64,000 nucleotides of DNA from an uncultured virus (IMG/VR IMGVR_UViG_3300042261_000615) (Duplodnaviria; Heunggongvirae; Uroviricota; Caudoviricetes), in IMG/VR virus record IMGVR_UViG_3300042261_000615. The stretch is one strand, 5' to 3'. Both the position numbers and the translations under genes were made by a program. The notes under the pieces are model-generated. The model made no database searches. It was not told the origin of the DNA and saw nothing but the letters and a program-made list of their open reading frames with translations. Below, piece after piece: positions 1,086 to 22,391 of this stretch. Position 1 is the stretch's first letter. The number at the start of each line of letters is the position of its first letter.

Positions 1086-1937
1086 TTAAAATGCGAAAAA
1101 TTTACTAGCCTCTCGTTTTACACTTACAACACTTCCCCAATTTACACAATCGTAGAAATCTTGAAGTTTTTCAGTCAATTCACTATCCAATATTCGGTTA
1201 TGGTCTATATATGTTGTTATAAATTCCATAATCTCAGATGGATCATTATCACCCTTAAATGCCAATGCATCGATACCAAGTGGATTAGATTTCAAATATG
1301 CCCATTTGACCTTATCACCACTCCTAAGAGGTTCATACTTAAACGCACAATTAAAATGCTTCAAACAATCATTATAAAGTATTGCCGCTTTTACATGGGC
1401 AGGAGTACCTTTTTCCAAACTAAACGGTTGTCTTTTTTTGGGCATATATTTTGACATATCCTTTACAGCTGAATTCTTAGATATATCCACTACATTCATA
1501 CTCTTCATATTCGATCTAAAATCAGATATAATGTCTGTAACTTCATCTTCGGTTTTACCTTTCAATATACTAATCAAAACATCAGCCATTACTTTTTGAA
1601 ACGCTTTAGGAAATGAAGATCTCTTTACATCCAACCCCTTAACATCCAATTCATCCTTTGCTATACCATTTTCAGCAATAATCCATTGAGCATATCGTTT
1701 CTTCGATACCCACAAACCGCTACGAGATACAAACTCTTTCTTAATCTGAAAACGGTGGTTCTCTTTTGGTACATTAAATATACGTTCCGATAACAAATCG
1801 TAAAAATTATTAAGAAAATCCTGCGTTTCACCCGCAATACCATCCACTAGTTGTACAATATCCTCAATAGATTTATCTCTCCAATTATCATAACGATGGT
1901 CTAATAACGGAACTGCGCTAAAAAATACGGAATCCAT
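1086..1937 (-). CDS. Family-B DNA polymerase, C-terminal piece (second half of motif C, palm and thumb)
   Basis: Begins MDSVFF; KKRYA, VKGLDVKRSS, TPAHVKAA typical of gp43-like polymerases. Confidence 0.9.
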   Translation of the reverse strand: MDSVFFSAVPLLDHRYDNWRDKSIEDIVQLVDGIAGETQDFLNNFYDLLSERIFNVPKENHRFQIKKEFVSRSGLWVSKKRYAQWIIAENGIAKDELDVKGLDVKRSSFPKAFQKVMADVLISILKGKTEDEVTDIISDFRSNMKSMNVVDISKNSAVKDMSKYMPKKRQPFSLEKGTPAHVKAAILYNDCLKHFNCAFKYEPLRSGDKVKWAYLKSNPLGIDALAFKGDNDPSEIMEFITTYIDHNRILDSELTEKLQDFYDCVNWGSVVSVKREASKFFAF

Positions 1938-2021
1938 CTACGTGTCAATGTAGATGTTGAAGTCTATTCGACCCTCAGCATCTACATTGACAGTACCCTT
2001 TCTTATACTTTTAATTTTCAT
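1938..2021 (-). CDS. 27-aa middle piece of the family-B polymerase, MKIKSIRKGTVNVDAEGRIDFNIYIDT, in frame with the C-terminal piece and separated only by TAG
   Basis: Manual translation ...TAC ATT GAC ACG TAG ATG GAT TCC; YIDT plus DSVF rebuilds motif C; own upstream promoter. Confidence 0.8.
   Translation of the reverse strand: MKIKSIRKGTVNVDAEGRIDFNIYIDT
1943..1992. repeat. 14-bp perfect inverted repeat (extended RNA hairpin) inside the polymerase mini-ORF
   Basis: tgtcaatgtagatg (1943-1956) and catctacattgaca (1979-1992); the inner segment pairs further around a GAAUA loop. Confidence 0.9.
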
Positions 2022-2046
2022 TTATATTATTTTAATTAGTTTACTA

Positions 2047-2078
2047 CAAAGATACGAGAATTATTCCGAATAATCAAA
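2047..2078 (-). promoter_or_regulatory. Bacteroidota-type housekeeping promoter for the downstream polymerase pieces
   Basis: Minus strand TTTG-N20-TATCTTTG. Confidence 0.75.
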
Positions 2079-2918
2079 TATTTTAACATTTAATTTTTCA
2101 TCTATTCTAATAAATTTACATTTTAATTGATTACCGATTTCATTTTGACGAATTAAATCTCTTTCGGGCATGTCACCCCTACTATGATATTTTTCATCAA
2201 ACTCTATAACTACATTATTATCAATATCATAACCATCTACAATATATGTGGTATTTGGGATATGGTACTCACCACCGTTCTCAGCATGTTGGAACTCATA
2301 TCCGTTTTCTTCTGCATATTGTTCTATAATTGGTATTGATTTTTTATTGTAAGCAGTACATGTACCTTGCCTTATAACTCTATTTATAGCAGATTGCTTC
2401 ATTTTTTCTAATTCTTCGGGACGTTTTTTTCGTTTATAATTTCCCGATTTTTCCCCTATACAAATTTTTTTTTGAGTTACAGCATCGTTCATACTATCTG
2501 CTATTTCTTTACCATATAGTGTAACCCATTTTTCATAATAAGATGTACCATACATTGGGTTTTTTTCACCAGAATTACCTCGTTTTTTGTTATATTCAAC
2601 CCATTGTTCATAATCCCAACCGTATCTGTCTCGTTTATACTCAAATGAATTAGAATAAGACTGTTTTTCTTTATATATTTGCCATTTAATTTCACCATCA
2701 ATTTGACCATATTTGGATATCATATTATCCAATGTATTTGATCTACGATTTTGATATTCGGATTTGGCTTTGATTGCATCATCTTTAGATAATCCTTTAT
2801 ACAAATGAAAATACTCAAATGTACCAGGGGTTCTACTCAGCCGCATTTGTTCAGCTTCGGTTTCAGTATACCCGATATCAATCCAATGTTTTAATGTTCG
2901 TGCGCTTCCTTTTCCCAT
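2061..2918 (-). mobile_element. Free-standing homing endonuclease (Vsr/DUF559-like PD-(D/E)XK) between the polymerase pieces
   Basis: C-terminal VDGYD...VIEFDEKYH...RD; KYG-type repeats and NUMOD3-like GEKNPMYG; upstream TATTTATA at 2951-2958. Confidence 0.8.
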
Positions 2919-2974
2919 AATTTATATATAGATATGTTAGTGTATCCATATATAAATATAAGAAATTTAATTAT

Positions 2975-4744
2975 TTAGGCGATAAAATCATCACTTTCTA
3001 ACAAATCTTTTGCTAAAATTTCCTGTAATATACCATCTCGCTTTATAGAAACTTTACTATTTGGGTATTTAGTAATTTCGCTACCATTATCCAATGTAAT
3101 TATAATAGGAGTACCACCAAGTTCCATATTATATTTGGCATTAGCCATAGCTGCAGTAGATTTAATAACCTCCTGCCCCGTAAGTGTTACGGCTTCGGCA
3201 TTTGAAATATTATAGAACCTAAAAGCCGGGAGCCCCATGACGCCATATAAGCTATTGAGCAAAATCTTCTGTACTAACTGACGTTTTTTATAAAAAGTGT
3301 ATTTATCTTTATCACCGGCCAATCCAAATTGTTTTTCCAATTTTCTAAACTCAACACGTTGTTTGAACCAAGTATCCAAAATATCGGGAATACAACCAAC
3401 TTTATCGGTTCTGTACATAACACCATTTGATGCAACCGAATACTTTTCGGTTGTTATCATACGTTTTAGATTTTCAGCCGATATGATATTTTGACCAATA
3501 TGATATTCCGAAACTTTACCATTTATAAAATCGGATGCGTTCCAATTCTCAATCTTACCAATAAGAGTCTCGGGGCTAATATTAATGGTCATAATAATGG
3601 ATGGATACAGCGATGTTAAGTCCAAGTCATAAATCCACTCATACTTACCAGCTATGGGATCCTTAACATACGCTCCGATGAACTTTTCATCACCATTTTC
3701 ACGTAAGGCTTCCATTCGTTCTTGTCTATCAGCAGGTTTATTGGGTGCTACTAAATTCTTTCTTCTCAGATAAGTCAAAATAGCCCCCTCCAAATACTTC
3801 GATGAATATACAAAATCCTCATATGGTACATGACCAACGTGACATATCGCACGTGCCAAATCAATGAATTGTAACTTATTATTGAGTGCCACAACCAAAT
3901 CAACGTCCACTTTGTTGTATTCAATAAACTTTTCAATATCGTCCCTAAACAATTGGTCAAGATTTCCAGTATATTCAACCTTACCACGCTTCAACTCAAT
4001 ATTAGAAATAGTATCCAACCGATAATTCGGTAGTTCGGTGTAGGTATATGTTTTGTACAAATCAATGTAGTCCATATATGATACACCAGCTATAAAATAT
4101 CGTGTACGATACGGACTCCAAAAACACTGACCAATTGGTGATAATCTATTTGCATGTTGTTCACCCAACACATTCTTAATACGATTATACAACATCGGTG
4201 TATCGAACTTGTCTATATTCCACCCCGTTACAATTGTGGGATTGATCATTTCATATAAATCTAAATAACCCAAAAGTAGTTCAGCTTCACTACGATATGG
4301 TATTACTTTAGCACTTGCGGTATCACGTTCGACCATATCACCTTTAGCATCCAAAACCAATACATAATATTGGTCGGTTGCTGAATCGTGTACAGCAATA
4401 GATGTTATTGTATTTTGAGCTTTCTGAACATCTGGCAATCCACTCTCCATCTCAACTTCAATATCATATGTAAGTATGACATGACCATCCGATGAATCAT
4501 CAGAATCGGTGTATAAATCAATTAAAGCCCGTGTTGTTTCAGGAACATCCGATTCAAACAATTCAGGATCATCCTTTTTGAATTTGTAAATTTTATTCAG
4601 TCTATCACCATAAATTGATAGATATTGGCCACCTGCTGATTTTTCATAAGCATACCGTGTATATGGGAAAGAAAAGTACCCCTTCACACTATCCCACACA
4701 TGCATTAAGTTTCGTTCTCGTTGATAATAAATACTGCGATACAT
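2975..4744 (-). CDS. Family-B DNA polymerase, N-terminal piece (3'-5' exonuclease, motifs A and B)
   Basis: YDIEV, TGWNIDKFD, YNKVDV, DLDLTSLYPS, KILLNSLYG; ends before motif C. Confidence 0.95.
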   Translation of the reverse strand: MYRSIYYQRERNLMHVWDSVKGYFSFPYTRYAYEKSAGGQYLSIYGDRLNKIYKFKKDDPELFESDVPETTRALIDLYTDSDDSSDGHVILTYDIEVEMESGLPDVQKAQNTITSIAVHDSATDQYYVLVLDAKGDMVERDTASAKVIPYRSEAELLLGYLDLYEMINPTIVTGWNIDKFDTPMLYNRIKNVLGEQHANRLSPIGQCFWSPYRTRYFIAGVSYMDYIDLYKTYTYTELPNYRLDTISNIELKRGKVEYTGNLDQLFRDDIEKFIEYNKVDVDLVVALNNKLQFIDLARAICHVGHVPYEDFVYSSKYLEGAILTYLRRKNLVAPNKPADRQERMEALRENGDEKFIGAYVKDPIAGKYEWIYDLDLTSLYPSIIMTINISPETLIGKIENWNASDFINGKVSEYHIGQNIISAENLKRMITTEKYSVASNGVMYRTDKVGCIPDILDTWFKQRVEFRKLEKQFGLAGDKDKYTFYKKRQLVQKILLNSLYGVMGLPAFRFYNISNAEAVTLTGQEVIKSTAAMANAKYNMELGGTPIIITLDNGSEITKYPNSKVSIKRDGILQEILAKDLLESDDFIA

Positions 4745-5847
4745 TATTGAATCTCCCTCACATTTTTAATAAAATTATTCTCAATATCCCAACTCTTCAA
4801 TTGGTTTTCCCATAAAAGTGATTGGGCTATTTCTGTTACATTCGGTCGTTCAATTTCACCATCAAATAATTTTACCACTTTTTCTTTGAATTCTTGCTTT
4901 GTTTTATATAGCAATGGGTATTCGTTTCCAACCATTTCTGGATAACACATACCATCTGGTAATAGATATGGTACACCTCTACTTAACCCATCTGTGGTAC
5001 TCATACTCCAAGCTGAATATTTCTGAAAACACCCTACTCCGAAATGGGCTTGTGATAGTTGATTCATATATACATCTCTGTCAGCATGGCCTATATATTT
5101 GGTATATGGTTTACCCATATCCTTCAATGTAGTCCAAACTTGAAAATCCTGACGTTCCTTCCACAATTCATCCATCGTTTCAAAAAACCATTCAGACCCA
5201 GTATACACATTATCTCTATGATTGAACACAACCGTCTTTGGCGTAAACCCATTGGATGGAGTTGCAGTATCACACCCCAAATACCAAGGTTGAATAATCT
5301 TATCCAATTTCTCTATAATATGCGGTTGGAATACTTCGCCGGCGCGTTTCAACACAAGTTGTTTTACCCATTCCGAATTTACACCACACACTTTCATATC
5401 AAGCATACCACGAATGTTTCGCCAAAATGAATTATCATCCCTAGCACCATTATCAGGAATTTCCCACCAATGACAATATCCAATTATTGGTTGGGTTTTA
5501 TTATAAATACGCGTTATCTTAAATTCGTGAGTCCACTCAGGTAGATGCGACCACACCATATTAAAATTACCCTCATCCAATAATTTATCAAAAAACCTAT
5601 GTGGATAATCAACCCGCATCTTAGGCGGAAAGGAATCAACCTTTCCCATCAATCTCAATTTTACGTTTGGATAATCAATCCAATTTATTATGCCGGGCAT
5701 ATTATCGCTCGGGTAAGGCAGAACCCACTCCCAAGTCTTACCAATTTCGGTATTATCTAAAAAAGATTTGAATACCAATAGAAACGAATCTCTATTGATA
5801 TCCTTTGCTCCAAAATTAGTGTAATTAGGTATTACAAGTACTTTCAT
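4744..5847 (-). CDS. GT-B fold glycosyltransferase, probably DNA-modifying
   Basis: VVFNHR, WSMSTTDGLSRGVPYLLP, CYPEMV resemble GT4-type C-terminal motifs; TAATG overlap with the polymerase start. Confidence 0.7.
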   Translation of the reverse strand: MKVLVIPNYTNFGAKDINRDSFLLVFKSFLDNTEIGKTWEWVLPYPSDNMPGIINWIDYPNVKLRLMGKVDSFPPKMRVDYPHRFFDKLLDEGNFNMVWSHLPEWTHEFKITRIYNKTQPIIGYCHWWEIPDNGARDDNSFWRNIRGMLDMKVCGVNSEWVKQLVLKRAGEVFQPHIIEKLDKIIQPWYLGCDTATPSNGFTPKTVVFNHRDNVYTGSEWFFETMDELWKERQDFQVWTTLKDMGKPYTKYIGHADRDVYMNQLSQAHFGVGCFQKYSAWSMSTTDGLSRGVPYLLPDGMCYPEMVGNEYPLLYKTKQEFKEKVVKLFDGEIERPNVTEIAQSLLWENQLKSWDIENNFIKNVREIQ

Positions 5848-5848
5848 A

Positions 5849-7621
5849 TTATGCAGTTAAATTTATTTCTATCATCTCATAAAGAGTATCGATACTTCTT
5901 TGTACTTTTCGTTTCATAGTATTATTGAGTGTGTGCAGCATACACTCATTTTTTTCAATAATGGTTTTCCAATATTCATTTGGTGTACAATTCCAATTTT
6001 TATATTTCTGATTACCATCTAAATTATCATCAATCATACCCAAAAACCCATCTTTAGCATCACCACCGATACTATTGGGTGTTTTGTGTAACCAATGCAA
6101 CCCATCACCATTAGAAATATTTATTTCGGTCAATATATCAGTAGATAGTGGAAATAATTTTAATTTAGGTAAAAACTCATTTTCTATACAAAATGCTGAT
6201 AATTTACTTATAACAGATTCTCTATACTTAGCCTCAACGTTTCTATCGTTACCTCTGTCTAATAACCAATTCTGAACTTCCTTTGGAACGTATTGAAACA
6301 ATTTTTCAGTACGTTGAATACCACTGGTGGATTTGTATATGGATGATTCCGTTCCAAAATAATTATAAACGGCAACACTAGACCCATTAAATTCAACACT
6401 GCCATTTAATAACTTAACATAATTATTAACAACTTGTTCAATAATAGTTGTCAATCCTTTTTTCTTATTACGTTCCTTAAACCAAAGGACAACACACACA
6501 AACCATATACCAGTATGAAATTTTTTAATTTGAAGGTCTTTCATAGCAGTTGTTTCCACCCCATCACAATGTTTTGTTACAATTAATTTAATAGTTTGTG
6601 CAATCGTATCCCATAACTCTGATAAAAATACAACTTTATAATTTTTGTTATAAAAATCAACCATTTCTTGATATGTTGTATCGTTTACCATTTTTTTAAA
6701 CATATTTGACCAGTAATCAGAAACATCAATATCATTATGATTATTAAATCTTATAATCATAAGATGCGCTTCTATAAGTTCATCCAATGTGGTACAATAC
6801 TTAGAAATACAATATGCAACATATATTGGAATTACTCTAGCCACTCTACGTGTTTCAGCATCAGTTTTATACCCATACATCAATTTACCCATAGAAAATC
6901 TAGCAGTTCCAACTTTATCAGAAAAATAATTTAGCAATTCAGACCCTAAAAATTGAGTCTTATATTGTTGAGTGAATTTTAAAGAAGTCATATAGAAATT
7001 ATAAGCCACCCACGGATTCGGTTGCTTATTACAATTAATCATATCTTTTTGATGTTGTTTGGTTGAGAATAGATTAACAACAAACGCAATTTCGGTAGAA
7101 TTGTAAGTAGCCAACGCATTAATTGAATTTTCCAATAATTCTTTCCACGAATATTTTAAATCCAATTGTGATTCACTAAGAGATTCTACAAATTGTTTCA
7201 ATGCATTTATAAAGGTTTGGTTTTGGATATCAACTTCATATTCAGTTATAATATCATCAAATAAATTCAGCCAGTCGTGGCCGGTTAAATACTTTGTATC
7301 AAAGTATTTACCGAACGCAAGAGCAAACATAGTACCATTATCACGTATAAGACCGTGCTTAGATGGATTATCTTTCAGAATAGAAACCATAAGTTGTCCT
7401 TTTTCCGATATACCAACCACATATCGAATCAAATGATTAACTTTTGACTTATATTGGTCTATGGTATCCAAATCTTCATCTCTGTTAGATTCATTATCCA
7501 ATATACCGCTATCTATAAGAGTTTTACACTCCGAGAAAGAAGCCGTACCAAGTTTTCGCATTAAAATACTCGGTTGATACTTATTTTCCCCAACATATTT
7601 AATTGCATCGTGTAACGTCAT
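5849..7621 (-). CDS. 590-aa protein, possibly a diverged DUF262(ParB-like)/HNH GmrSD-like protein
   Basis: Weak motif resemblance: ESNRD, IRDNGT, INCN, and C-terminal HWLHKTPNSIGG...DDN. Confidence 0.4.
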   Translation of the reverse strand: MTLHDAIKYVGENKYQPSILMRKLGTASFSECKTLIDSGILDNESNRDEDLDTIDQYKSKVNHLIRYVVGISEKGQLMVSILKDNPSKHGLIRDNGTMFALAFGKYFDTKYLTGHDWLNLFDDIITEYEVDIQNQTFINALKQFVESLSESQLDLKYSWKELLENSINALATYNSTEIAFVVNLFSTKQHQKDMINCNKQPNPWVAYNFYMTSLKFTQQYKTQFLGSELLNYFSDKVGTARFSMGKLMYGYKTDAETRRVARVIPIYVAYCISKYCTTLDELIEAHLMIIRFNNHNDIDVSDYWSNMFKKMVNDTTYQEMVDFYNKNYKVVFLSELWDTIAQTIKLIVTKHCDGVETTAMKDLQIKKFHTGIWFVCVVLWFKERNKKKGLTTIIEQVVNNYVKLLNGSVEFNGSSVAVYNYFGTESSIYKSTSGIQRTEKLFQYVPKEVQNWLLDRGNDRNVEAKYRESVISKLSAFCIENEFLPKLKLFPLSTDILTEINISNGDGLHWLHKTPNSIGGDAKDGFLGMIDDNLDGNQKYKNWNCTPNEYWKTIIEKNECMLHTLNNTMKRKVQRSIDTLYEMIEINLTA

Positions 7622-7713: not shown

Positions 7714-8517
7714 TCACCAAAACGATACTGAAAGGCTATCTTCGGGTGGAAATGTTTCGTGATATGTGATATTAGCATCATATACCGCATTATCTTTTGG
7801 GTATGGTTTCAAAGCATGCTTGATGTTCTTCATCAGTTCCTTCTTCTCACGCTTATCACCAACTATAATCTGAACATACCGATGTTTTGGTGGTTCTAAT
7901 CGTCTCCAGAACCCAGCATACCCCTCTTTACCAATCTCTCTTTTTAAATGGTCTAAGTTATTACTACCCCACAATGAATAAACAGTTCTGCTGTGAATCC
8001 ATTTGTAAGGATTTTCTTGCACAGATATCCCGTAATTCGGCATTAACGCGATTTCATCGCTCGTACCCGTATATTGCCAATTGGTAGCCTGATAAATCTT
8101 ACCTAAATGCTCTTGCCCAACATCAGCGTATGATATCAATGCTTTAATATTTTTGTCATTTTCTCTCAACCATTTGAAAGTTTGCCCAATTGCATATGAT
8201 TCAATATTAGAACCATATCCATCATCAATATATAATCGTGTAAGTTCCAATACATTATCTTTTGTCAGACCATCACTAATAGATGTGGGGGCTTTTGCAC
8301 CAACTGGGAATCCGTAGATAGCACACCCAATTAACTTATCCGTATCGCCTAATATATTAACCTCATCGGTTTTATAGAACACCCCTATGGCGTAACGGCA
8401 CGCGGACCATGCGTGGGTATAGTGTTTTTCTACAATAATTTTTTTAGCAGTATCTTTGGATATGGGTGCAACATAAACTCTGCTCACATCGCAATACTCT
8501 TTTCCTTCTTCACGCAT
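7714..8517 (-). CDS. Mom-like GNAT-fold DNA base-modification protein, paralog 1
   Basis: IVEKHYTH, VLELTRLY, ALISYAD, HLGKIYQATNWQYTG. Confidence 0.8.
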   Translation of the reverse strand: MREEGKEYCDVSRVYVAPISKDTAKKIIVEKHYTHAWSACRYAIGVFYKTDEVNILGDTDKLIGCAIYGFPVGAKAPTSISDGLTKDNVLELTRLYIDDGYGSNIESYAIGQTFKWLRENDKNIKALISYADVGQEHLGKIYQATNWQYTGTSDEIALMPNYGISVQENPYKWIHSRTVYSLWGSNNLDHLKREIGKEGYAGFWRRLEPPKHRYVQIIVGDKREKKELMKNIKHALKPYPKDNAVYDANITYHETFPPEDSLSVSFW

Positions 8518-8532
8518 TACAATTTATTTTTA

Positions 8533-8563
8533 CAAATATACTATTTTTTTTTCAGATTGCAAA
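8533..8563 (-). promoter_or_regulatory. Bacteroidota-type promoter
   Basis: TTTG-N19-TATATTTG. Confidence 0.65.
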
Positions 8564-9316
8564 ATTTATTGGGTCTAATTTATAAATCTCGTCAGTATGT
8601 GTATCATTTAATTTTGGATATGGCTTTAATTCATGCTTCAAACTTTTTATTATACGTTTCCGACCACTGCCATTCGTTAAAATATATATATACCTATGCT
8701 TTCTGGGTTCTTTTTTTATCCAAAATGGTTTGTTTACCAAAGTTTGTATTATTTTGGGGTCATTAGTCCCATAGTACGGAAAAATTGTTCTACTATGTTG
8801 CCATTCACCATTTTCATCAAATCTAAATACCCACCCATCATTGAATCGTAACTTATTACCCTGATACATCCAATTCGTTGCCTGATACACTATACCCGTA
8901 TGACCAGCTTTTGGGTCTGAGTATGATATTAATGCCTTTATATGTGGTGCATGTTGTCGTAACCATTTGAAAGTCTGTCCAACGAACCAACTCTCAACAT
9001 TACTGCCATATCCATCAAATACAAATAAACGGGTCAGTTCTAATACAGATGTACGGTCCAATAGTGGTGAAATAGATTGTCCTGCGCTTCTACCAACCGG
9101 ATCCCCATAACAAGCAACCCCTATCAACTTTTCGTTTACGTTATCAAAGAATGGGTGATATTCATTATTCTCAATAAATAACCCAATTGCATAACTAACT
9201 TTAGTCCATAAGTGTGAATAATGGTTTGAAACTATAATTTGTCTAGCAGTACCTTTTGGTATCGCCCGTATGGATAATTTGGATGTATCGCAATACTGCT
9301 TTCCTTCTATTTTCAT
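8552..9316 (-). CDS. Mom-like GNAT-fold DNA base-modification protein, paralog 2
   Basis: IVSNHYSH, VLELTRLF, ALISYSD, HTGIVYQATNWMYQG. Confidence 0.8.
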   Translation of the reverse strand: MKIEGKQYCDTSKLSIRAIPKGTARQIIVSNHYSHLWTKVSYAIGLFIENNEYHPFFDNVNEKLIGVACYGDPVGRSAGQSISPLLDRTSVLELTRLFVFDGYGSNVESWFVGQTFKWLRQHAPHIKALISYSDPKAGHTGIVYQATNWMYQGNKLRFNDGWVFRFDENGEWQHSRTIFPYYGTNDPKIIQTLVNKPFWIKKEPRKHRYIYILTNGSGRKRIIKSLKHELKPYPKLNDTHTDEIYKLDPINFAI

Positions 9317-9321
9317 ATAAT

Positions 9322-9501
9322 CTATTTAAGATGTTTCCACGTTTTACGTTTCGTTATTTCGCGGATATTCCAAGAACTCACCTTAAAGTTTCTAGCAATA
9401 ACATTATCGGAAAACCCCTTTTCATGTAACTCTCGGATTTTCTTTACTTGTTCATTTGTCAATTTTGCTTTTGGGTGCATTTCCCCCCGCAATCCGCTCA
9501 T
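9322..9501 (-). CDS. Small helix-turn-helix protein resembling the DNA-binding tail of HNH endonucleases
   Basis: GEMHPKAKLTNEQVKKIR...IARNFKVS...KTWKHL; start set at the ATGA overlap. Confidence 0.65.
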   Translation of the reverse strand: MSGLRGEMHPKAKLTNEQVKKIRELHEKGFSDNVIARNFKVSSWNIREITKRKTWKHLK

Positions 9502-10130
9502 ATCGAAAACCATTTATCAGCCCCTTTAATTATAGGGTGATACCACCCCAATATCTTACGCATCTTATTACGTTTCATATGGATTGGATATAACCATATG
9601 TTCTTCGGCAGCCCTTCACATATTACAGCCTTACCCGTTTTAACATCTTCCCTCATTCGATATGAATAATCCCTATCTATAGATAATGAGCGTGGGTGAT
9701 ATATTTTACCTTCCCATTCCACCCACTTTGTAGCCGATGTCTGCCCTATATGTCTAAAGTTAGCAGCTTTGTATATAGTACCCATATGTCCTACAGAGGT
9801 ATCGCTGTATGACAATACATTTTCATATTCAGTATTTGTAGATATCCATTGGATAATTTGTCCCAAAAACCAGCTCTCACTATTTTTTGGAGCAGCATCA
9901 ACACACGCCATTCTACGAATATCTATACAATTTTTATAACGATTTTCATGTCTCGGTTTACCCAATACAGCACCCCCAACCAAATCATTATCTATTGTCA
10001 TAGCGAAACAATTACTTATACCGCCACCCATATGACCACGCTTATAGTGAAACTCTTCAAATATATGTCGAATATCACTAAAATCACACAGATATATTTT
10101 GCAACGCGTTTTATCTAAAACTTCATCCAT
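9498..10130 (-). CDS. Mom-like GNAT-fold DNA base-modification protein, paralog 3
   Basis: FEEFHYK, IDIRRMAC, PKNSESWF, VLSYSD, HMGTIYKAANF; start set at the TAATG overlap. Confidence 0.75.
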   Translation of the reverse strand: MDEVLDKTRCKIYLCDFSDIRHIFEEFHYKRGHMGGGISNCFAMTIDNDLVGGAVLGKPRHENRYKNCIDIRRMACVDAAPKNSESWFLGQIIQWISTNTEYENVLSYSDTSVGHMGTIYKAANFRHIGQTSATKWVEWEGKIYHPRSLSIDRDYSYRMREDVKTGKAVICEGLPKNIWLYPIHMKRNKMRKILGWYHPIIKGADKWFSI

Positions 10131-10495
10131 TATTCCCAAAAACAATGATTTGTTGGTTTAATATCACCCACCTTCTTTTTCTTATCAGTATACTCAATTT
10201 TATCCGAATTATGTAGTTCCCAATCGATACGGGCCTCTGCAATTTCGAAATAATCCGGTTCACGCTCAATACCTATAAAGCTCACACCTTCACGTATTGC
10301 AGCTTTTCCGGTACTACCACTACCCATAAAAGGGTCTAACGTAACACCACCCTTTGGAGTAACCAATCGTATAAGATATGACATTAGGTCTACTGGCTTG
10401 AGCGTCGGGTGCGTATTCGATTTACCAGTATGCAGCGTAAAATGTATTTTTAGTTCGTCTGGTAATTTATCGTATTGCTGCTTTGATAGTTTCAT
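10130..10495 (-). CDS. Split DNA methyltransferase, C-terminal SAM-binding piece
   Basis: NTHPTLKP, LDPFMGSGSTG, FIGIERE; complements the ORF at 11275-12924. Confidence 0.85.
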   Translation of the reverse strand: MKLSKQQYDKLPDELKIHFTLHTGKSNTHPTLKPVDLMSYLIRLVTPKGGVTLDPFMGSGSTGKAAIREGVSFIGIEREPDYFEIAEARIDWELHNSDKIEYTDKKKKVGDIKPTNHCFWE

Positions 10496-11216
10496 ATATA
10501 TAATCTTTATTTAATTTAATATCGCTTTCCCAAAATCTTAATACAGTATAACCAGCTTTACGCATATATGCATCTTGACTTTTATCCAGATTCATTCTTT
10601 TTAATTGTCTATGGTCAGGAATGCCCCCTTTTAATTTGGTGGGGTGACCGTGCCAATAATCACCATCCCATTGTATTACTATTTTTTTATCAACTAATAC
10701 AACATCAACTAAAAATTTATCAAATAGTAATTGCTGACATTCATATTCAACCCCTATATCGTTTAATATAAAATTACCAGCAATTTCTAATCCATTCAAC
10801 CCCTTCCTATTTTGTTGTGACTGGTTTGCTTTTATATTGGATTGTCGCCATTCATCATCACTATTTCGACATACGATAGAACAAAATTTAGTTTCATATT
10901 TTCTGCCATCGGCAAGACTTTTACTTATAGCAAATTCAGTGCCGCATGTTTTACATATAAAACGTGATTTATTTCTAGATTGCCAAATAATCTGACACGT
11001 ATTTCCACAAAATCGTTTAGATTGGGTTTTTGTAGTAAAATGGTTACTACATATTTCACATTGCTTTTCTATAATATATCTAAAAGTTCTAGTAGGTCTG
11101 TAAGTATCATAACATTTGCGAGAGCAGTATTTTTGGTTTTTATTAAAATGACCACCAACAGTCTTACCGCATGACACGCACAAAATTTCTCTATATTTAT
11201 ATTCACACTTACCCAT
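10467..11216 (-). mobile_element. Free-standing homing endonuclease (zinc-ribbon repeats plus DUF559/Vsr-like domain) splitting the methyltransferase
   Basis: CxxC...YCSxxC repeats; VDVVL...IQWDGDYWH...D...GYTVLRFWE; TATTTATA at 11249-11256. Confidence 0.85.
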
Positions 11217-11274
11217 AATAATTCATTAAGTTAAAAGGTTTCACTGTGTATAAATATAAAAAAAATAATATAAA

Positions 11275-12924
11275 TCATAAATATTTTTTAATTTTTTCTA
11301 ATATTTCTAATGCAACACCATCGTTTAATATATAAAAATCATCACCCAACCCTTCATTGCGTTCCGATTTGGATACTTTTGGACAATAAAAGAATCGAGA
11401 AGCACCACCCATATCATCATATTCGCAATTAACTTGAACTTCGGTACTATTGTTTAATTTTATCGGGTTACTTATATCAGCCGTTCTTTTATTTCCTTTT
11501 ATAGATTTACTCACACCACTTTGTTCATCCAACAGTTCCCCCGCTTCTTCATCCAAAATTATATTAGCAGGCCATCTACCCAAAGTTTGACCATTAGTTT
11601 GGTGTGTTTCTTGAGCTTTACTATAACCATAAATACCTTTGCTTACGGCACTATCACTACCCCGACTATGGTTCGTTATAGTTTCATCTGTAGCTATTCT
11701 ACACCCGTCTATGTTAATCCCACCAGTACCCCATTTCAGTACGTTGTCTGCAACAGTAGGTTCGGATAGTGGTTTTCTACAAAGTGTCCACAATTCCATA
11801 GCAGGTTTAAGAGCTGTGCCTCGGCCGTCAAATTCTGCTACATGGTTTTTTAGAATATCTACCATGCTTGAAATTAGGAGCTCCATTGTGGATACCGTAA
11901 TAATGACATTGATGACAGTAGGTAATTCCGTTTGAGATAACATGCCGCAACTCGGGGTATTCTGAACATAATTTAATATGATGGGCTTCAAGTTTTTTAT
12001 TATCTCCGCATATTGTACATTTATATCCATCTCGTTCAAGTACCGAACGTTTCCATTGTAAATCTTCTGGACTACGTCTACCTTGAGACTGTCCATTATT
12101 TTTTCTTCTAAAAGAGGATGAGCATTTATGGGAACAGAAATTATGTTCGGAGTGGATGATGTTAGTATTTGGTTTTCGTACTTCAAGTCCACAGTATTCG
12201 CATTTAATAACATTTGAGTTTGCAAGAGATCTGCAGGATTTACTACAATAGTTGTGTGCCCCTCTAGTGTGTGACAAGTTTCTATCAAATTCACTTCCGC
12301 AATTATCGCATTTGACTCTAATTTTAGTTGTGTGTCCGATACCGGAGCACTTTTTACTACAGTATTTTTTTTCGTTATATGATTTCCAGCATCTATCTGT
12401 TGTTTTGGGGATAACTGTTCCGCATGTTTCACAATATCTAAGTTCACGTTTTTCCATAATTCATATATATCTTTACTATAAGTATCAAATTTTTTAAAAT
12501 TGTCAATTGATTTATAGATATTTTTTGATATATTCATACTTTTCGGGAATCCGCTTCCATATACCCAGGCAACAATATCCCTGATTTCAAACCCAGCAAA
12601 TCGCAGACTAGATGCCATCCAATCCTGCGTTCTAGTACCACATGCGACCAGCATATACCCCCCCGGTTTCAATACTCGATATACCTCCTTCCATAATATA
12701 GGTTGGGGTACGAACGAATCCCATTCCTTTCCCATAAAACCACCACCCTTTACTTCATGGTATCCGCACTTTACCCATGATGTCATCACGTCTACAATGT
12801 CGGGTTCTTTTCCAAGTCCGTATGGAGGGTCTGTAACAATACTATCAACCGAATTGTCATCCAATTCTTTTAGCCTATCTAAGCAATCTCCTAATAATAA
12901 TTTAATGTTTCCGTTATAACTCAT
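11275..12924 (-). CDS. Split DNA methyltransferase, N-terminal catalytic piece, with a ~225-aa in-frame insertion
   Basis: GDCLDRL, TDPPYGL, WVYGSGFPKS, GTALKPA, GRWPANII, ASRFFYCPK; no FxGxG motif. Confidence 0.85.
   Translation of the reverse strand: MSYNGNIKLLLGDCLDRLKELDDNSVDSIVTDPPYGLGKEPDIVDVMTSWVKCGYHEVKGGGFMGKEWDSFVPQPILWKEVYRVLKPGGYMLVACGTRTQDWMASSLRFAGFEIRDIVAWVYGSGFPKSMNISKNIYKSIDNFKKFDTYSKDIYELWKNVNLDIVKHAEQLSPKQQIDAGNHITKKNTVVKSAPVSDTQLKLESNAIIAEVNLIETCHTLEGHTTIVVNPADLLQTQMLLNANTVDLKYENQILTSSTPNIISVPINAHPLLEEKIMDSLKVDVVQKIYNGNVRYLNEMDINVQYAEIIKNLKPIILNYVQNTPSCGMLSQTELPTVINVIITVSTMELLISSMVDILKNHVAEFDGRGTALKPAMELWTLCRKPLSEPTVADNVLKWGTGGINIDGCRIATDETITNHSRGSDSAVSKGIYGYSKAQETHQTNGQTLGRWPANIILDEEAGELLDEQSGVSKSIKGNKRTADISNPIKLNNSTEVQVNCEYDDMGGASRFFYCPKVSKSERNEGLGDDFYILNDGVALEILEKIKKYL
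11828..12457 (-). mobile_element. HNH homing endonuclease nested in the methyltransferase gene in a different frame
   Basis: Zinc-ribbon repeats, then VLERDGYKCTICG...LEAHHIK...NGITYCHQCH; promoter variant TACTTATA at 12477-12484. Confidence 0.85.
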
Positions 12925-13664
12925 TCCCAAAAATTATTTGAATTTTTATTTAATCTTTTATTTATAATTTCAATATACTCTATATTATTTTCAATTAAAA
13001 TACAATTTCGATTATTGTTTATACACACATCACCCAAAGTGCCACTACCAGCAAAATTATCCAATATAATATCACCCTCATTTGTAAATAACTTAACCAA
13101 TCGTTCAATAAGTTGATATGGTTTTTGAGTCGGATGCTTTAATTTTTCCCTACTATTATGCGGTAATGCCGGAATATCACTCCAAACGTCACTCATAGTT
13201 ATACCATCTTTTAGAATGCCTGTATAATATTCTTTTCTGTCGGTTTTTGGTTTGATTTTAATATTATTAAATGTACCCCCACTCCCATTAGTATAGTAAC
13301 AAATCGGTTCATATCCACTAGCTAAAGCCGTACCACGGGTATTATTAAATGCGCGTTTTCTAGCCCAAATTATTATTCGTTTTTCATTAAAAAATTCATC
13401 TAATATGGTTGATATTTTGCGATTATATTGACGGCCTGTAAAGATAATTATATTACCCCCATCTTTAATAATTCGTTTATATTCCACTATAATACGTCGG
13501 CACCAATCCAAATACTCAACTTCAGTACTCCATTGATTATCCCAATCTTCTTTAACTACTTTATAAAATGGCCAATCTGAAATTATATGATCTATACTAT
13601 TGGTATCGATATTCCCAAGTTCCTCTATACAATCCCCATAAATAATATTTGCGTTTACACTCAT
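12921..13664 (-). CDS. N6/N4 DNA methyltransferase (beta class) with atypical motif IV DWPF
   Basis: GDCIEEL, SDWPFY, HPTQKP, DNFAGSGT. Confidence 0.85.
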   Translation of the reverse strand: MSVNANIIYGDCIEELGNIDTNSIDHIISDWPFYKVVKEDWDNQWSTEVEYLDWCRRIIVEYKRIIKDGGNIIIFTGRQYNRKISTILDEFFNEKRIIIWARKRAFNNTRGTALASGYEPICYYTNGSGGTFNNIKIKPKTDRKEYYTGILKDGITMSDVWSDIPALPHNSREKLKHPTQKPYQLIERLVKLFTNEGDIILDNFAGSGTLGDVCINNNRNCILIENNIEYIEIINKRLNKNSNNFWE

Positions 13665-16497: not shown

Positions 16498-16992
16498 TTA
16501 TCCCAATCCTGAAACTTGTGGAGGTTTACCCCCAATCGGCATTGTTTCCATATATTTTTTATGAAGTAATTGTCTATCTTCTTCAGCACCACTCCTACTT
16601 GCTTTTTGCGAAATAATACCATCGGTTGATGTAGGATTATACACTTCAATAATTCCATGATTCGTGTCCATTTTTGTGGGAAACGTCAATCCATCCGGAC
16701 CGAATCTGTTTTTCATAATATGAATACGAGCAGTATTATTCAATTTATCTTTCGATTTTCTACTTAAACTTATAATGAAGTCTGCGTTCATAACCTTTGC
16801 ATATGAATCCGCAACTTTGTCAGCTTCAATTACCTCACTATCTACAGATGAATTATGGGTATATATATCATTGGCGTAGAACATATGCGTATCCGCCACT
16901 GTTATATCAATCGTTTCCAACTCACCAATCATTTCTATTGAAACGATTTCATCCAAATCAAAATCATTAATATCTAAAGTATGTTTATTCAT
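16498..16992 (-). CDS. Replicative helicase piece 3: 47-aa IntC (16852-16992) plus C-extein
   Basis: TIDITVADTHMFYANDIYTHN|SSVD; ADSYAKVMNAD, MKNRFG. Confidence 0.9.
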   Translation of the reverse strand: MNKHTLDINDFDLDEIVSIEMIGELETIDITVADTHMFYANDIYTHNSSVDSEVIEADKVADSYAKVMNADFIISLSRKSKDKLNNTARIHIMKNRFGPDGLTFPTKMDTNHGIIEVYNPTSTDGIISQKASRSGAEEDRQLLHKKYMETMPIGGKPPQVSGLG

Positions 16993-17956
16993 ATAAAAAT
17001 TTAATACATTGCCCAATAACAACACTTTTATTCTTCATATAATTCTCATATTTTACACGAAGAACATCATAGTTATGCGATTTCAAAAACAAATCACGTT
17101 TCATATCACGATATGTATCATGCCAATACTCACAGTCAAATTCAATAATTTTATGCTTAAACTTAAAATCAACTCTGTGTAATTTTATCAAATTATCAGT
17201 ATGTTCATAAAACTTATACTCTTCATTTAATTCATAAAAATATACGTCAGATTTCATATTATCAGGCAAATGGTTATATATTTGCCAAAATAACGTTTGT
17301 GATGATTTGGATACTCCATTAAATTCCAATGGTTTGGTAATTGCTGATAACCACTCAGTATATTTCACAGTTCCATCAATTTCACCATATTTGGATACCA
17401 TACGGTCTAATGTAATTGCATATTTTTTGCAATTCTCTTCGTATTTAATCCTACCAGCATCTGCCCCATATCTATTTACAAATGATTCAAGTGATATGTT
17501 ATCTTTAATTTTAGCACATATTTCACGACCATAGATTTCACCATATTCGTCTATATATCGTTGCCGAGATACTTTATATGATTGAATTCTATTTCGTTCA
17601 CTCCATTTAGTATAACCAACATCAACACCATGTCGTTCCTGATATTCTTCTAATGTTCTTCCGTTTTTCCACTTTTTATCTCTAAAATTATCTTTTTGAG
17701 TTTTTAGTTTTTTAGAAACAACAGCATCCCATCGTAATTTTCCATCAATATCACCATATTTATCAATATAATATTGTAAATTAAAAGTAGATTTCTTTTT
17801 AGATAAATTTTTAACATAATCATCACCATATTTAATACGTAATTCGTCCTTCGTCTTACCAAATTTTGATTTGTGGTCATTCCACATTCGAAGTCCTTCA
17901 CGCTCTCCGTATTTATTTATCCACGCTTGTTTTACAGATGCCATAATTTTTAACAT
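16985..17956 (-). mobile_element. Free-standing homing endonuclease (DUF559/Vsr-like) between helicase pieces 2 and 3
   Basis: KYG...G...W repeats; VDFK...IIEFDCEYWH...RD...YDVLRV; TATTTATA at 17969-17976. Confidence 0.8.
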
Positions 17957-17993
17957 ATTTAGTGTATATATAAATATAACAACATCACAAAAA

Positions 17994-20013: not shown

Positions 20014-20052
20014 AATAAATTACCTTTTATATAAATATAAAAAAATATTTTT

Positions 20053-21953: not shown

Positions 21954-22391
21954 TTACTCATCCAACAAAGTACCAACCGATAACTCGTCTTCTGCTATCT
22001 GATTGCTCTTATATTGTGATATTGTTGCATCGCATATCTTGCTATACACATCATCTCTCATATCGGGGTGTGATGTCAATATATCTTCAAAATCTTTTGA
22101 TTGAAATTTTATCTCCTCACCTGTAGTTTCATTCACATACGTATACCACGCACCACCCTGCTTTATGATACCATAATCTTTCATAGCACTTATCCAAGCG
22201 CCATAGTTATCGATACCACGGTCAAAGAATATATCGAAATCAGCGGATCTCAATGGTGGGCCCATTCGATTCTTTATAACCTGCGCCCGTACTTTAATAC
22301 CAACAACTTGTTCTTGACCTTTAACTTTTGCTTTGATAGTTCCCATATTTTTCAACCTAAGCCTAACTGATGCGTGAAAAGCCAATGCTTT
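21954..22391 (-). CDS. recA: RecA/UvsX 3' exon
   Basis: KALAFHASVRL, VIKNRMGPP, GAWY; follows the intron terminal G. Confidence 0.9.
   Translation of the reverse strand, partial: KALAFHASVRLRLKNMGTIKAKVKGQEQVVGIKVRAQVIKNRMGPPLRSADFDIFFDRGIDNYGAWISAMKDYGIIKQGGAWYTYVNETTGEEIKFQSKDFEDILTSHPDMRDDVYSKICDATISQYKSNQIAEDELSVGTLLDE

What the first reader, a model, noticed from the sequence alone, without database searches (positions are those of the whole stretch)
1938..3120. Polymerase pieces end in intein-like fragments with no catalytic residues: candidate non-splicing docking module
Seen: after KYNMELGG the N-piece ends TPIIITLDNGSEITKYPNSKVSIKRDGILQEILAKDLLESDDFIA. This aligns by eye with the second half of the helicase IntN in this window (ITLKSGKTIDVSAKHQFPTKYG...LKVGDKL). 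The next piece starts MKIKSIRK, like the first IntC strand. There is no N-terminal Cys/Ser block, no block-B His and no terminal His-Asn, and an endonuclease gene sits between the two. Known: split gp43 and endonuclease-split NrdA (phage Aeh1) work as multi-chain enzymes. Inference: a Hint sub-domain kept only to hold the pieces together.
Basis: partly seen in the sequence, partly recalled or inferred. Interest (0 to 1): 0.8.

Follow-up and report, generated by a model that had tools for sequence, protein, structure and literature searches.

The report
Split phage polymerase with dead-intein tails
A lake phage's DNA polymerase gene has been cut up by a selfish nuclease gene; the cut ends carry a leftover half of a self-splicing protein element that can no longer splice and probably only clips the pieces together, and a second, tiny break sits inside the enzyme's active site.

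Summary
The sequences are there as described, but the gene is in three ORFs, not two. The N piece (589 aa) ends in a 46-aa acidic tail. A putative homing-endonuclease gene follows, then a 27-codon ORF, then TAG-ATG, then a 283-aa C piece.

The tail is a real family feature: 60 of 62 related N pieces examined end in it. By profile search and by predicted fold it matches residues about 66-120 of inteins, the block-B half. No splicing residue is left, so the Hint origin is supported. Docking is inferred only, because the complex predictor was not available.

This 6-nt filler follows an 18-bp hairpin. All six related loci with a filler at this codon have such a hairpin; three split loci without a filler and 81 contiguous relatives do not.

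The layout (tail, nuclease gene, leader, re-copied target stretch, stop-containing filler) mirrors the phage T4 gene 60 MobA cassette. In this window the C part is made either by restart at the adjacent ATG or by a short ribosome hop, and I cannot tell which.

This scan has noted both features before on other DNA. I found neither in the papers I could search.

The parts
2975..4744 (-). PolB N piece, 589 aa (exonuclease domain, motif A DLTSLYPS, motif B KILLNSLYG), including its stop codon
   Evidence: (PF00136 9.6e-30, PF03104 6e-20)
2978..3115 (-). 46-aa acidic C-terminal tail (CTE): the block-B half of a Hint/intein fold, with YPNS where T-x-x-H would be
   Evidence: net charge -3
2920..2957 (.). 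15-nt inverted repeat (93%) in the spacer just upstream of the nuclease gene's start
   Evidence: I12. Dassa 2009 mentions a hairpin upstream of the endonuclease genes in its loci (passage)
2061..2918 (-). 285-aa ORF, putative free-standing homing endonuclease; catalytic family not identified
   Evidence: phrog_22677, unknown function; relatives in L008, L090, L250; NUMOD3 in 2 of 4
1977..2021 (-). Leader (NTE) of the mini-ORF, MKIKSIRKGTVNVDA: basic start, candidate partner strand of the tail
   Evidence: (first 10 residues of 30 of 31 family leaders are net positive)
1941..1976 (-). Codons EGRIDFNIYIDT: the polymerase's own strand leading into motif C, the counterpart of 'HomR' in the T4 MobA element
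   Evidence: contiguous relatives read ELGTKGEDYNIYIDTDSVFF
1943..1992 (-). Hairpin: arms 1943-1960 and 1975-1992 (18 nt, 94% complementary, 14-nt loop). The 3' arm is made of the N-I-Y-I-D codons and ends at the first base of the Thr codon
   Evidence: -27.7 kcal/mol, z -7.3; I6
1935..1940 (-). 6-nt filler TAG ATG between the Thr and Asp codons of motif C (Y-I-D-T | D-S)
   Evidence: Present without difference in contigs of runs X1 and X2, which are one sample
1086..1937 (-). PolB C piece, 283 aa, MDSVFF... (second half of motif C, rest of palm, thumb)
   Evidence: (PF00136 1.5e-7)

Best explanation
A homing-endonuclease cassette has invaded the family-B DNA polymerase gene of a T4-like lake phage and split it between the helix ending KYNMELGG and the strand leading into motif C.

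The cassette gives the N piece a 46-aa acidic tail. This tail is the middle part of an intein (about residues 66-120: block B to the usual split or endonuclease site), with every splicing residue gone. The cassette gives the next ORF a basic leader, MKIKSIRK....

Inferred: tail and leader re-form one lobe of the Hint fold. This would resemble the first, electrostatic 'capture' step of natural split inteins, and it would dock the chains without any splicing.

Shown: 27 codons into the second ORF, a 6-nt filler (TAG ATG) splits catalytic motif C (DT|DS) directly behind an 18-bp hairpin made from the leader codons and the NIYID codons.

My best guess for this window, at about 45%, is that ribosomes stop at TAG and restart at the touching ATG. 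The refolding hairpin would hinder backward movement. The enzyme would then be three chains (589 + 27 + 283 aa), with the 27-aa peptide bridging the Hint lobe and the palm. The close rival, at about 40%, is a gene-60-like 6-nt hop giving one 310-aa C chain.

By analogy with T4 MobA, the filler would protect the carrier from cutting at the conserved motif C DNA. That role is untested.
For: Split architecture and family:
- 79 of 80 IMG/VR relatives of the C piece read straight through ...KYNKELGTKGEDYNIYIDTDSVFF.
- 60 of 62 N-piece relatives examined end in the tail.
- 32 of the 120 listed C-length relatives start with an MKIK-type leader.
- Tail and leader occur together on 7 of 7 loci that hold both ends: window, L090, L264, L300, L314, L250, L006.
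- Both persist where the nuclease gene is gone: L090, L264, L314, and a remnant in L300. In LR756508 four other ORFs lie between the pieces.

Hint origin. The tail is not a copy of the polymerase's own next segment (hhalign probability 0.09%).

Charges: 59 of 60 tails are net negative (mean -4.5). 30 of 31 leaders are net positive over their first 10 residues (mean +3.0).

Fused form: P0170 carries tail+leader as one inserted domain.

Filler and hairpin:
- Fillers at the same codon are TAAATG (L090), TAACC (L008), TGATT (L300/L304), TGACA (L314) and 42 nt (L263/L264).
- The 63 nt before the filler fold at -17.3 to -27.7 kcal/mol in 6 of 6 gapped loci. The values are -7.8, -7.7 and -6.1 in three split loci without a filler, and a mean of -5.5 (minimum -11.0) in 81 distinct contiguous relatives.
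- 90.5% of stem cells pair and 4 of 14 pairs change on both sides. The covariation score is 0.367 against 0.270 for shuffles, reached by 2 of 500.

Restart: an ATG touches the stop here and in L090. Three protein clusters start MDSVFF. L264 has a GGGGA-type site and an ATG before TDSVFF.

Analogy: passages of bioRxiv 10.1101/2022.08.31.505936 and PMC7026636.
Against: - No binding test could be run.
- All intein matches are weak in absolute terms: PDB E 0.001-0.08, Pfam below its cut-off, Foldseek E>0.6, VIA Z 2.5-5.9.
- The window's own tail alone finds no intein, and it did not align to the window's helicase IntN.
- The leader could be shaped by the hairpin and by the polymerase's own sequence rather than by an IntC ancestry. 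P0087 and P0114 start MKIKKINKELG / MKIKKITKELN, like the native ...NIKYNKELG.
- Other split phage enzymes assemble without Hint parts.
- Against restart: three loci have 5-nt fillers with a frame change and no start codon (L008, L300/L304, L314), yet the same hairpin. A mechanism common to all gapped loci would be a hop.
- Against a hop here: the codon before GAT is ATG, not a Thr codon.
- The filler was seen only in contigs of one sample. Contigs of the second study stop at 1929.
- No RNA or protein data exist.
Confidence: 0.6

Rival explanations
1. Short programmed ribosome hop. With ACG (Thr) in the P site and TAG in the A site, refolding of the upstream hairpin pulls the mRNA forward. The peptidyl-tRNA re-pairs 6 nt on and translation resumes at GAT. 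This gives one 310-aa C chain with an intact YIDTDS, a miniature of T4 gene 60.
For: - The hairpin is specific to gapped loci (6 of 6, against 0 of 3 split loci without a filler and 0 of 81 contiguous) and co-varies.
- A stop follows the Thr codon directly in 5 of the 6 gapped loci. In the sixth, L264, one Phe codon separates Asp from the stop.
- Removing 5 or 6 nt restores the motif exactly.
- 5-nt fillers without any start codon can hardly be read otherwise. Two of the three (L008 ACC, L314 ACA) end in a Thr codon.
- In gene 60, mRNA refolding behind the ribosome is said to prevent backward sliding (PMC7026636 passage).
- The Aeromonas clade of the gene 60 element has a gap of only 20 nt.
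Against: - Here and in L090 the landing triplet is ATG, and in L300 it is ATT.
- The 7-nt fillers inferred from P0101 and P0091 would end in TCN or GCN. This is my back-reading of protein frames, not DNA.
- L264's 42-nt filler has no matching take-off and landing pair, yet it has the hairpin.
- P0093 and P0079 carry sense-codon fillers (DT-QI-DS, DT-QFT-DS).
- There is no experimental data.
Confidence: 0.4
2. The tail and leader are neutral wreckage of a decayed split intein. The polymerase halves associate through their own large palm, fingers and thumb interface, and the tails add nothing.
For: - Split phage enzymes without intein parts work. NrdA of Aeh1 and gp43 of Aeromonas phage 25 are cited in the Dassa 2009 passages.
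Against: - About 60 protein clusters keep the tail at 32-60% identity to the window's, with a conserved pattern.
- It is kept after loss of the nuclease gene.
- Tail and leader carry opposite charges.
- The model is confident (pLDDT 82.5), and a fused form keeps the module as a domain.
- For Aeh1 NrdA, deleting the added tails is reported to abolish activity (preprint passage).
Confidence: 0.2
3. The region from the tail to the leader is a self-splicing intron carrying the nuclease gene, so the pieces are joined at the RNA level.
For: Nuclease genes often sit in group I introns of phage polymerase and recA genes (known background; Dassa 2009 passages).
Against: - No Rfam family matched at the gathering score in the whole window, nor at E<=1 in 1700-3400.
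- The tail is conserved as protein, with a predicted fold.
- In relatives the pieces are 13 nt to 3 kb apart, with other genes between them.
- Splicing would not remove the TAG ATG filler.
Confidence: 0.03
4. The polymerase gene is dead or mis-assembled: TAG ATG is an error or an inactivating mutation.
For: A stop lies inside the catalytic motif. Independent read support across 1930-2076 is lacking.
Against: - Identical sequence is found in contigs of two runs, though of the same sample.
- Five other distinct loci carry fillers at the very same codon.
- Both flanking ORFs are intact and 55-66% identical to many relatives.
- The hairpin co-varies with the filler's presence.
- No other DNA polymerase was found among 42 further ORFs of the window.
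Confidence: 0.08
5. The tail is a degenerate duplicate of the polymerase's own segment after the split, as suggested by a MAFFT alignment, and not an intein relic.
For: MAFFT placed TKYPNS...ESDDFIA opposite HRYDN...ETQDFLN of the C piece.
Against: - hhalign of 25 tails against 31 C pieces gave probability 0.09% over 10 columns.
- Profile, fold and Atlas searches all point to Hint.
Confidence: 0.02

Closest known systems
'Fractured genes': split inteins with a free-standing homing-endonuclease gene between the halves (Dassa et al. 2009, PMC2677866; passages read)
   Same: A phage replication gene is cut in two with a nuclease ORF between the parts. A hairpin lies upstream of the nuclease gene. 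There are intein-derived ends on both sides of the cut. This window also holds true examples in its helicase.
   Different: Here only about a third to a half of the Hint domain is left (46 aa plus about 15 aa). There is no Cys/Ser1, no block-B His and no His-Asn/+1 nucleophile, so no trans-splicing is possible. A second break follows inside motif C.
Aes123 PolB1 naturally split, cysteine-less intein of T4-like Aeromonas phages (PDB 9hth; PMC11923092, passages)
   Same: It is the best sequence match of the tail profile in the PDB (E 0.0011). The host gene is the same (PolB of T4-like phages), and so is the neighbourhood: its native flanks are DTD / SVY, which is motif C.
   Different: Aes123 PolB1 is a complete, active split intein inserted after DTD. 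The module here sits 14 codons upstream, lacks both splice junctions, and cannot splice.
Phage T4 gene 60 / MobA element: split topoisomerase with added tails, re-copied target stretch and 50-nt bypass cassette (bioRxiv 10.1101/2022.08.31.505936, passages; review PMC7026636, passages)
   Same: The order of parts is the same: ORF1 with an added C-terminal extension, the nuclease gene, then ORF2 with an added N-terminal extension, then a stretch homologous to the replaced target, then a filler with a stop directly after a sense codon. The split lies in a catalytic metal-binding motif. An upstream stem-loop is present. The cassette persists after loss of the nuclease, and the nuclease type can be swapped.
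   Different: - The gene is different and the nuclease is unrelated (no HNH match).
- The filler is 6 nt here (5-42 nt in relatives) instead of 50 (20 in one clade).
- There is no matched take-off and landing pair in this window.
- An ATG allows plain restart.
- The C-terminal extension is intein-derived.
- Bypass is unproven here.
Nuclease-made 'genes in pieces' without inteins: NrdA of phage Aeh1 (mobE) and gp43 of Aeromonas phage 25 (cited in PMC2677866 and in the preprint; original papers not read)
   Same: The enzyme works as separate chains after a nuclease gene splits it. Added tails at the cut are reported to matter for activity (preprint passage).
   Different: Those tails are not reported to be Hint-derived. 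No third break in a catalytic motif is reported.

Membership tests
Intein (protein-splicing Hint domain) | Hint fold | tested here: inconclusive
   Only part of the fold is present. The tail model superposes on residues about 63-129 of inteins/Hedgehog (Z 2.5-5.9, rmsd 1.8-3.7 A, 50-54 residues). The fused relative's module 541-606 matches HINT models at TM 0.71-0.77.
Intein (protein-splicing Hint domain) | Block A: N-terminal Cys/Ser nucleophile at the N-extein junction | tested here: not met
   The polymerase sequence KYNMELGG runs directly into the part aligned to intein residue about 66 onward. The first 65 or so residues of an intein are absent.
Intein (protein-splicing Hint domain) | Block B T-x-x-H | tested here: not met
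   YPNS lies where TADH, TVDH, THDH or TSGH lie in the aligned inteins. 0 of 25 tails have His there.
Intein (protein-splicing Hint domain) | Block G: terminal His-Asn followed by Cys/Ser/Thr | tested here: not met
   About 15 leader residues are followed by the polymerase's own EGRIDFNIYIDT. There is no HN followed by a nucleophile.
Fractured gene sensu Dassa 2009 | Gene halves with a free-standing nuclease ORF between them | tested here: met
   The ORF is at 2918..2061. Its nuclease identity is inferred.
Fractured gene sensu Dassa 2009 | Functional split intein on the two halves | tested here: not met
   See the intein rows above.
T4 gene 60 / MobA-type bypass cassette | Added C-terminal extension, nuclease gene, added N-terminal extension, re-copied target stretch and filler, in that order | tested here: met
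   compared with the preprint passages
T4 gene 60 / MobA-type bypass cassette | Stop codon directly after the take-off codon | tested here: met
   ACG TAG. The same is seen in L090, L008, L300 and L314.
T4 gene 60 / MobA-type bypass cassette | Matched take-off and landing codons | tested here: not met
   ACG against ATG in the window. The pair is matched as Thr/Thr only in L008 and L314.
T4 gene 60 / MobA-type bypass cassette | [quoted passage not shown] | tested here: met
   18-bp hairpin, -27.7 kcal/mol, specific to gapped loci. Its effect on ribosomes was not tested.
T4 gene 60 / MobA-type bypass cassette | Homology to MobA (HNH) or to the 50-nt cassette | tested here: not met
   The ORF has no Pfam HNH match, and the filler is 6 nt. 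This is an analogue, not a member.
T4 gene 60 / MobA-type bypass cassette | Ribosomes actually skip the filler; nascent-peptide signal | not testable with these tools
   This needs protein mass spectrometry or reporter assays.
Family B DNA polymerase | Exonuclease domain and motifs A, B and C | tested here: met
   PF00136 and PF03104 match on the N piece, and PF00136 on the C piece. Motif C is present but divided by the filler.

The most novel reading that the evidence does not exclude
The window holds a second, independently evolved kind of gene-60-like mobile cassette, with two inventions. First, half of a dead intein is re-used as a non-covalent clasp for a split polymerase. Second, a hairpin-stop-filler module inside the catalytic DTD motif is read by a hairpin-driven hop of only 5-6 nt. 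Where an ATG is present, it instead yields a polymerase whose catalytic beta-hairpin is assembled from two chains, with a 27-aa bridging peptide.
Probability: 0.35. Interest if true: 0.9.

Novelty: new variant of a known kind. Interest (0 to 1): 0.72.

Why it matters
It would show how a selfish nuclease cassette can cut an essential enzyme in its active-site region and still leave it working. The means would be salvaging half of an intein as a docking clasp and passing a stop-containing filler by restart or a very short hop.

A natural, splicing-dead Hint half that still pairs would be a compact, orthogonal protein-docking tag. It would also be a direct test of the 'capture' step of split-intein assembly.

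A widespread family of 5-7-nt stop-containing fillers behind co-varying hairpins would make programmed bypassing testable in many natural variants, where until now it has been known essentially from T4 gene 60. It also matters for annotation: gene callers report these polymerases as truncated or broken. 24 of the 120 listed relatives were called from a downstream Met.

Tried and rejected
- Complex prediction on tail (A3, residues 530-589) plus mini-ORF: tool not available, so there is no binding prediction.
- IMG/VR scan for KYNKELGG: 13 stretches, 2 true (L244, L250).
- IMG/VR scan with the nuclease ORF: 3 weak loci, not used.
- The window tail alone against Pfam and PDB found no intein; only the 25-sequence profile did.
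- Two tails also touched DrmE_C (best E 8.7e-4). Not followed up.
- Sequencing runs: no RNA holder listed. Contigs of the independent study X3 do not cover 1930-2076.
- No whole genome is held for this window.
- ACG as a special take-off codon: rejected. Contiguous relatives use ACG in 28 of 52 distinct sequences.
- Tree programs were not available. A crude NJ tree without support values shows gapped, ungapped and contiguous forms interleaved, with MDS-type starts in three places. I draw no firm conclusion from it.
- Literature: searches listed no paper describing a splicing-dead half-intein clasp on a split polymerase or a short filler in PolB motif C. Only the held library was searched. The preprint's supplements are closed. 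Shah et al. 2013 is not held.
Full report
**What is at the coordinates**

All genes of the window lie on the minus strand. The window is a T4-like myovirus segment. It encodes a gp23 capsid protein, tail sheath, gp32, a RecA-like protein, a DnaB-like helicase, three Mom-family proteins and several DNA methylases. GC content is about 34%.

The family-B polymerase is read from three ORFs:
- 4744..2975: 589 aa with the exonuclease domain and motifs A and B. It ends KYNMELGG + TPIIITLDNGSEITKYPNSKVSIKRDGILQEILAKDLLESDDFIA.
- 2021..1938: MKIKSIRKGTVNVDAEGRIDFNIYIDT, then TAG.
- 1937..1086: 283 aa starting MDSVFF, beginning at the very next base.

A 285-aa ORF (2918..2061) lies between the first and the second. 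But the 'next piece' is a 27-codon ORF, and its end plus the start of the third ORF form catalytic motif C: IYIDT / TAG ATG / DSVFF.

**What relatives look like**

- The closest named phage, Microcystis phage Mel-JY01, has one contiguous gene reading ELGTIGKDYIQYIDTDSVFV.
- 79 of 80 IMG/VR relatives of the C piece (57-64% identity) are contiguous as far as their contigs reach: KYNKELGTKGEDYNIYIDTDSVFF.
- In a second set, 54 of 61 loci are contiguous.
- Relative to these, the window has an insertion from after ELGG to before EGRIDF (tail, ORF, leader), plus 6 extra bases between the Thr and Asp codons.

**The split form is a large family**

A protein search restricted to the last 100 residues of the N piece returned about 60 clusters of 575-600 aa that end in the same tail. 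That is 60 of the 62 best hits examined. The other two are a contiguous-type protein and the fused P0170.

The consensus is KYNKELGG.P..IELEDGS....YPN..V.V.R.G....I.AKEL.E.DD.I.

A search for C-piece-length proteins listed 120:

| Class | Count |
|---|---|
| Fragments of contiguous genes | 47 |
| Start with an MKIK-type leader and run uninterrupted through NIYIDTDSVFF | 32 |
| Start MDS | 3 |
| Start (M/L/V)(Y)TDS | 5 |
| Sense-codon inserts inside DTD (DT-QI-DS, DT-QFT-DS) | 2 |
| Out-of-frame stretch before DS | 5 |
| Called from a Met downstream of DS | 24 |
| Other | 2 |

Tail and leader occur together on all seven loci where both ends can be seen (window, L090, L264, L300, L314, L250, L006/LR756508). 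The nuclease ORF lies between the pieces only in the window, L008 (partial) and L250. It is reduced to 26 codons in L300 and is absent in L090, L264 and L314. In LR756508 four unrelated ORFs lie between the pieces. The split and its tails therefore outlive the nuclease gene.

**Is the tail Hint-derived?**

The window's tail alone finds nothing in Pfam or PDB. Its by-eye alignment with this window's helicase IntN is not reproduced by hhalign. A profile of 25 tails does find inteins:
- Its four best PDB hits, out of 11 at E<=10, are inteins: the Aes123 PolB1 split intein 9hth (E 0.0011), the Pab intein 2lcj (0.002), KlbA 2jmz (0.0058) and PI-PkoII 2cw7 (0.081).
- All four align at the same place, the strand before block B through the ...L..GD strand. 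The tail's YPNS lies opposite TADH, TVDH, THDH and TSGH.
- Three of 25 tails touch PF14890 at profile positions 47-95 of 155, below the curated cut-off.

AlphaFold2 on the 54-residue segment with that alignment gives five strands at mean pLDDT 82.5. Structure comparisons:
- Foldseek finds no match at E<=0.001. The best geometric matches are inteins and Hedgehog Hint, for example the RadA intein (probability 0.97, TM 0.65, rmsd 1.3 A over 40 columns). Hfq rows have rmsd 8.5-9.6 A.
- VIA-align lists 19 entries. 18 of them are inteins or Hedgehog, always over residues about 63-129 (Z 2.5-5.9).
- The ESM Atlas model of the naturally fused relative P0170 gives HINT and intein-bearing neighbours for residues 541-606 (tail plus leader equivalent), with TM 0.71-0.77 by query. 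One is a 103-aa PT-HINT protein aligned over all 66 residues.

The rival that the tail is a degenerate copy of the polymerase's next segment fails (hhalign probability 0.09%).

I conclude that the tail is the block-B half of an intein, at about 0.9 probability. It cannot splice: block A, the block-B His and the His-Asn/+1 junction are all missing.

**Does it dock?**

This is inference. The points in favour are:
- conservation over about 60 clusters;
- survival after nuclease loss;
- a confident independent fold;
- a fused form in which tail and leader make one inserted domain;
- opposite charges. 59 of 60 tails are net negative (mean -4.5), and 30 of 31 leaders are net positive in their first ten residues (mean +3.0).

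A review passage describes natural split inteins as first recognising each other through anionic IntN and cationic IntC regions, the 'capture and collapse' model (PMC11766414). The original paper was not available.

The leader itself is too short to test for IntC ancestry. Two family leaders look like the polymerase's own NIKYNKELG. The complex predictor was unavailable.

**The break inside motif C**

Six bases, TAG ATG, sit between the Thr and Asp codons. They are present without difference in contigs of two runs of one sample. Contigs of an independent study are identical where they overlap but end at 1929.

Other loci carry different fillers at the same codon:

| Locus | Filler | Note |
|---|---|---|
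| L090 = L119 | TAAATG | |
| L008 | TAACC | |
| L300 = L304 | TGATT | |
| L314 | TGACA | |
| L263 = L264 | 42 nt after YID | Own small hairpin, a GGGGA-type site and ATG TAC before TDSVFF |

The 5-nt fillers change the frame and leave no start codon for DSVFF.

In every one of these six distinct loci, the 63 nt ending at the codon before the filler fold into a long hairpin. Its 3' arm is the N-I-Y-I-D codons and its 5' arm lies in the leader.

| Group | Folding energy of the 63 nt |
|---|---|
| Six gapped loci | -17.3 to -27.7 kcal/mol (z -3.0 to -7.3) |
| Split locus without filler, L316 | -7.8 |
| Split locus without filler, L250 | -7.7 |
| Split locus without filler, L006 | -6.1 |
| 81 distinct contiguous relatives | mean -5.5, sd 2.9, minimum -11.0 |

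In the window the arms are 1943-1960 and 1975-1992: 18 nt, 94% complementary, with a 14-nt loop.

On an alignment of the six, 90.5% of cells in a 14-pair stem pair, against 13-49% when the partner is slid. Four pairs change on both sides. The covariation score is 0.367 against 0.270 +/- 0.038 for shuffles, reached by 2 of 500. Six sequences are few, and relatedness can inflate such figures.

The Thr codon ACG is not special: contiguous relatives use it in 28 of 52 distinct sequences.

**How the filler is passed**

The order of parts is: added tail, nuclease gene, added leader, a stretch homologous to the replaced target (EGRIDFNIYIDT against TKGEDYNIYIDT), then a stop-containing filler. A 2022 preprint describes the same order for the T4 gene 60 MobA element. 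There the filler protects the carrier from its own nuclease, and the added tails are proposed as a general way to rescue split ORFs. [quoted passage not shown]

- For the 5-nt fillers, a forward hop is the only reading that restores DTDS. Two of the three end in a Thr codon.
- For this window, two readings compete. One is restart at the ATG that touches the stop. It is supported by the same arrangement in L090, by three protein clusters starting MDSVFF, and by L264's own start site. The other is a 6-nt hop onto ATG, supported by the shared hairpin and weakened by the non-matching triplet.
- I put restart at about 45%, a hop at about 40%, readthrough at about 5% and a dead gene at about 8-10%.

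Two relatives carry sense-codon fillers (DT-QI-DS, DT-QFT-DS). This hints that the tip of the catalytic hairpin tolerates extra residues.

**Other rivals**

No Rfam family, introns included, matches in the window or at E<=1 in 1700-3400. No second DNA polymerase is seen among 42 further ORFs, and the whole genome is not held. A crude NJ tree without support values shows gapped, ungapped and contiguous forms interleaved. That would fit a mobile cassette but proves nothing.

**Known or new**

Published relatives of the idea are:
- fractured genes with active split inteins (PMC2677866);
- the active Aes123 PolB1 split intein, inserted at DTD/SVY in T4-like Aeromonas phages (PMC11923092);
- nuclease-made genes in pieces;
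- the gene 60 cassette.

My six literature searches listed nothing on a splicing-dead half-intein clasp or on a short filler in PolB motif C.

This scan itself has already noted both features on other DNA. The notes on dead half-intein tails are e1-5846003, e1-5971575, e1-5971587 and e1-5971599. The notes on a short stop-containing gap behind a co-varying hairpin in motif C are e1-5951006, e1-6073605 and e1-5972946. I read these after forming my own reading and count them as leads, not support.

This window adds the combination of both features in one locus with the nuclease gene still present. It also adds a stop-ATG filler, which makes restart a live alternative to hopping.

Noticed in passing
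window 20844..16498 (minus strand): The DnaB-like helicase is in three ORFs with two nuclease-like ORFs between them (20013..19105, 18034..16985). The middle piece (19121..17994) starts with about 137 aa of intein-like sequence ending SHN|T and ends in an IntN beginning CLALDS. The last piece starts with an IntC ending THN|S. The first piece ends at GVGKTA with no IntN that I could see.
   Followed up: partly
window 24690..21954 (minus strand): The RecA-like gene is also in pieces: 24690..23911 (RecA profile 25-196), 23924..23547 (ends ...NHN|TTSGG, intein-like), a DUF559/Vsr-like ORF at 23291..22428, and then 22394..21954 (RecA profile 206-262).
   Followed up: no
window 12930..10130 (minus strand): An N6/N4 DNA methylase appears split. 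Profile 1-120 lies in 12930..11275 and profile 157-220 in 10495..10130, with a DUF559 ORF (11216..10467) between them. A further 209-aa ORF (12457..11828) is nested in another frame.
   Followed up: no
window 7714..10145: Three Mom-family ORFs (PF25680) lie in a row next to the polymerase, with two unannotated ORFs (5849..7621, 4744..5847). Earlier notes of this scan describe such replisome-embedded modification loci.
   Followed up: no
window 1935..1941 and 1979..1985: The filler with the preceding G (GTAGATG) repeats the last 7 bases of the hairpin's 5' arm. The 3' arm could therefore pair with either copy, giving two exclusive hairpins. This may be chance, a switch, or a trace of how the filler arose.
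   Followed up: no
L264 2848..2970: A relative has a 42-nt filler after NIYID: one Phe codon, a stop, a 6-bp GC-rich hairpin, then ATG TAC before TDSVFF. It is closer in size to the T4 gene 60 gap. Its N piece also carries an intein.
   Followed up: partly
L006 364..3417 and 6423.. (LR756508, 484-kb uncultured phage): The same split with tail and MK.K leader is present. In addition there is an intein in motif B and a full intein exactly at D|TDS of motif C, and four unrelated ORFs lie between the pieces. No hairpin precedes motif C there (-6.1 kcal/mol).
   Followed up: partly
P0170 residues 541-610: One relative (899 aa) has tail and leader fused in a single chain as an inserted domain. It is either the ancestral state or a re-fusion after nuclease loss.
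   Followed up: partly
window 1911..1931 and relatives: Four gapped loci (window, L090, L008, L264) read GTA TTT TTT AGY after DS. 51 of 52 contiguous relatives read GTA TTC TTT, mostly followed by TCA. L300 and L314 differ. The meaning is unknown.
   Followed up: no
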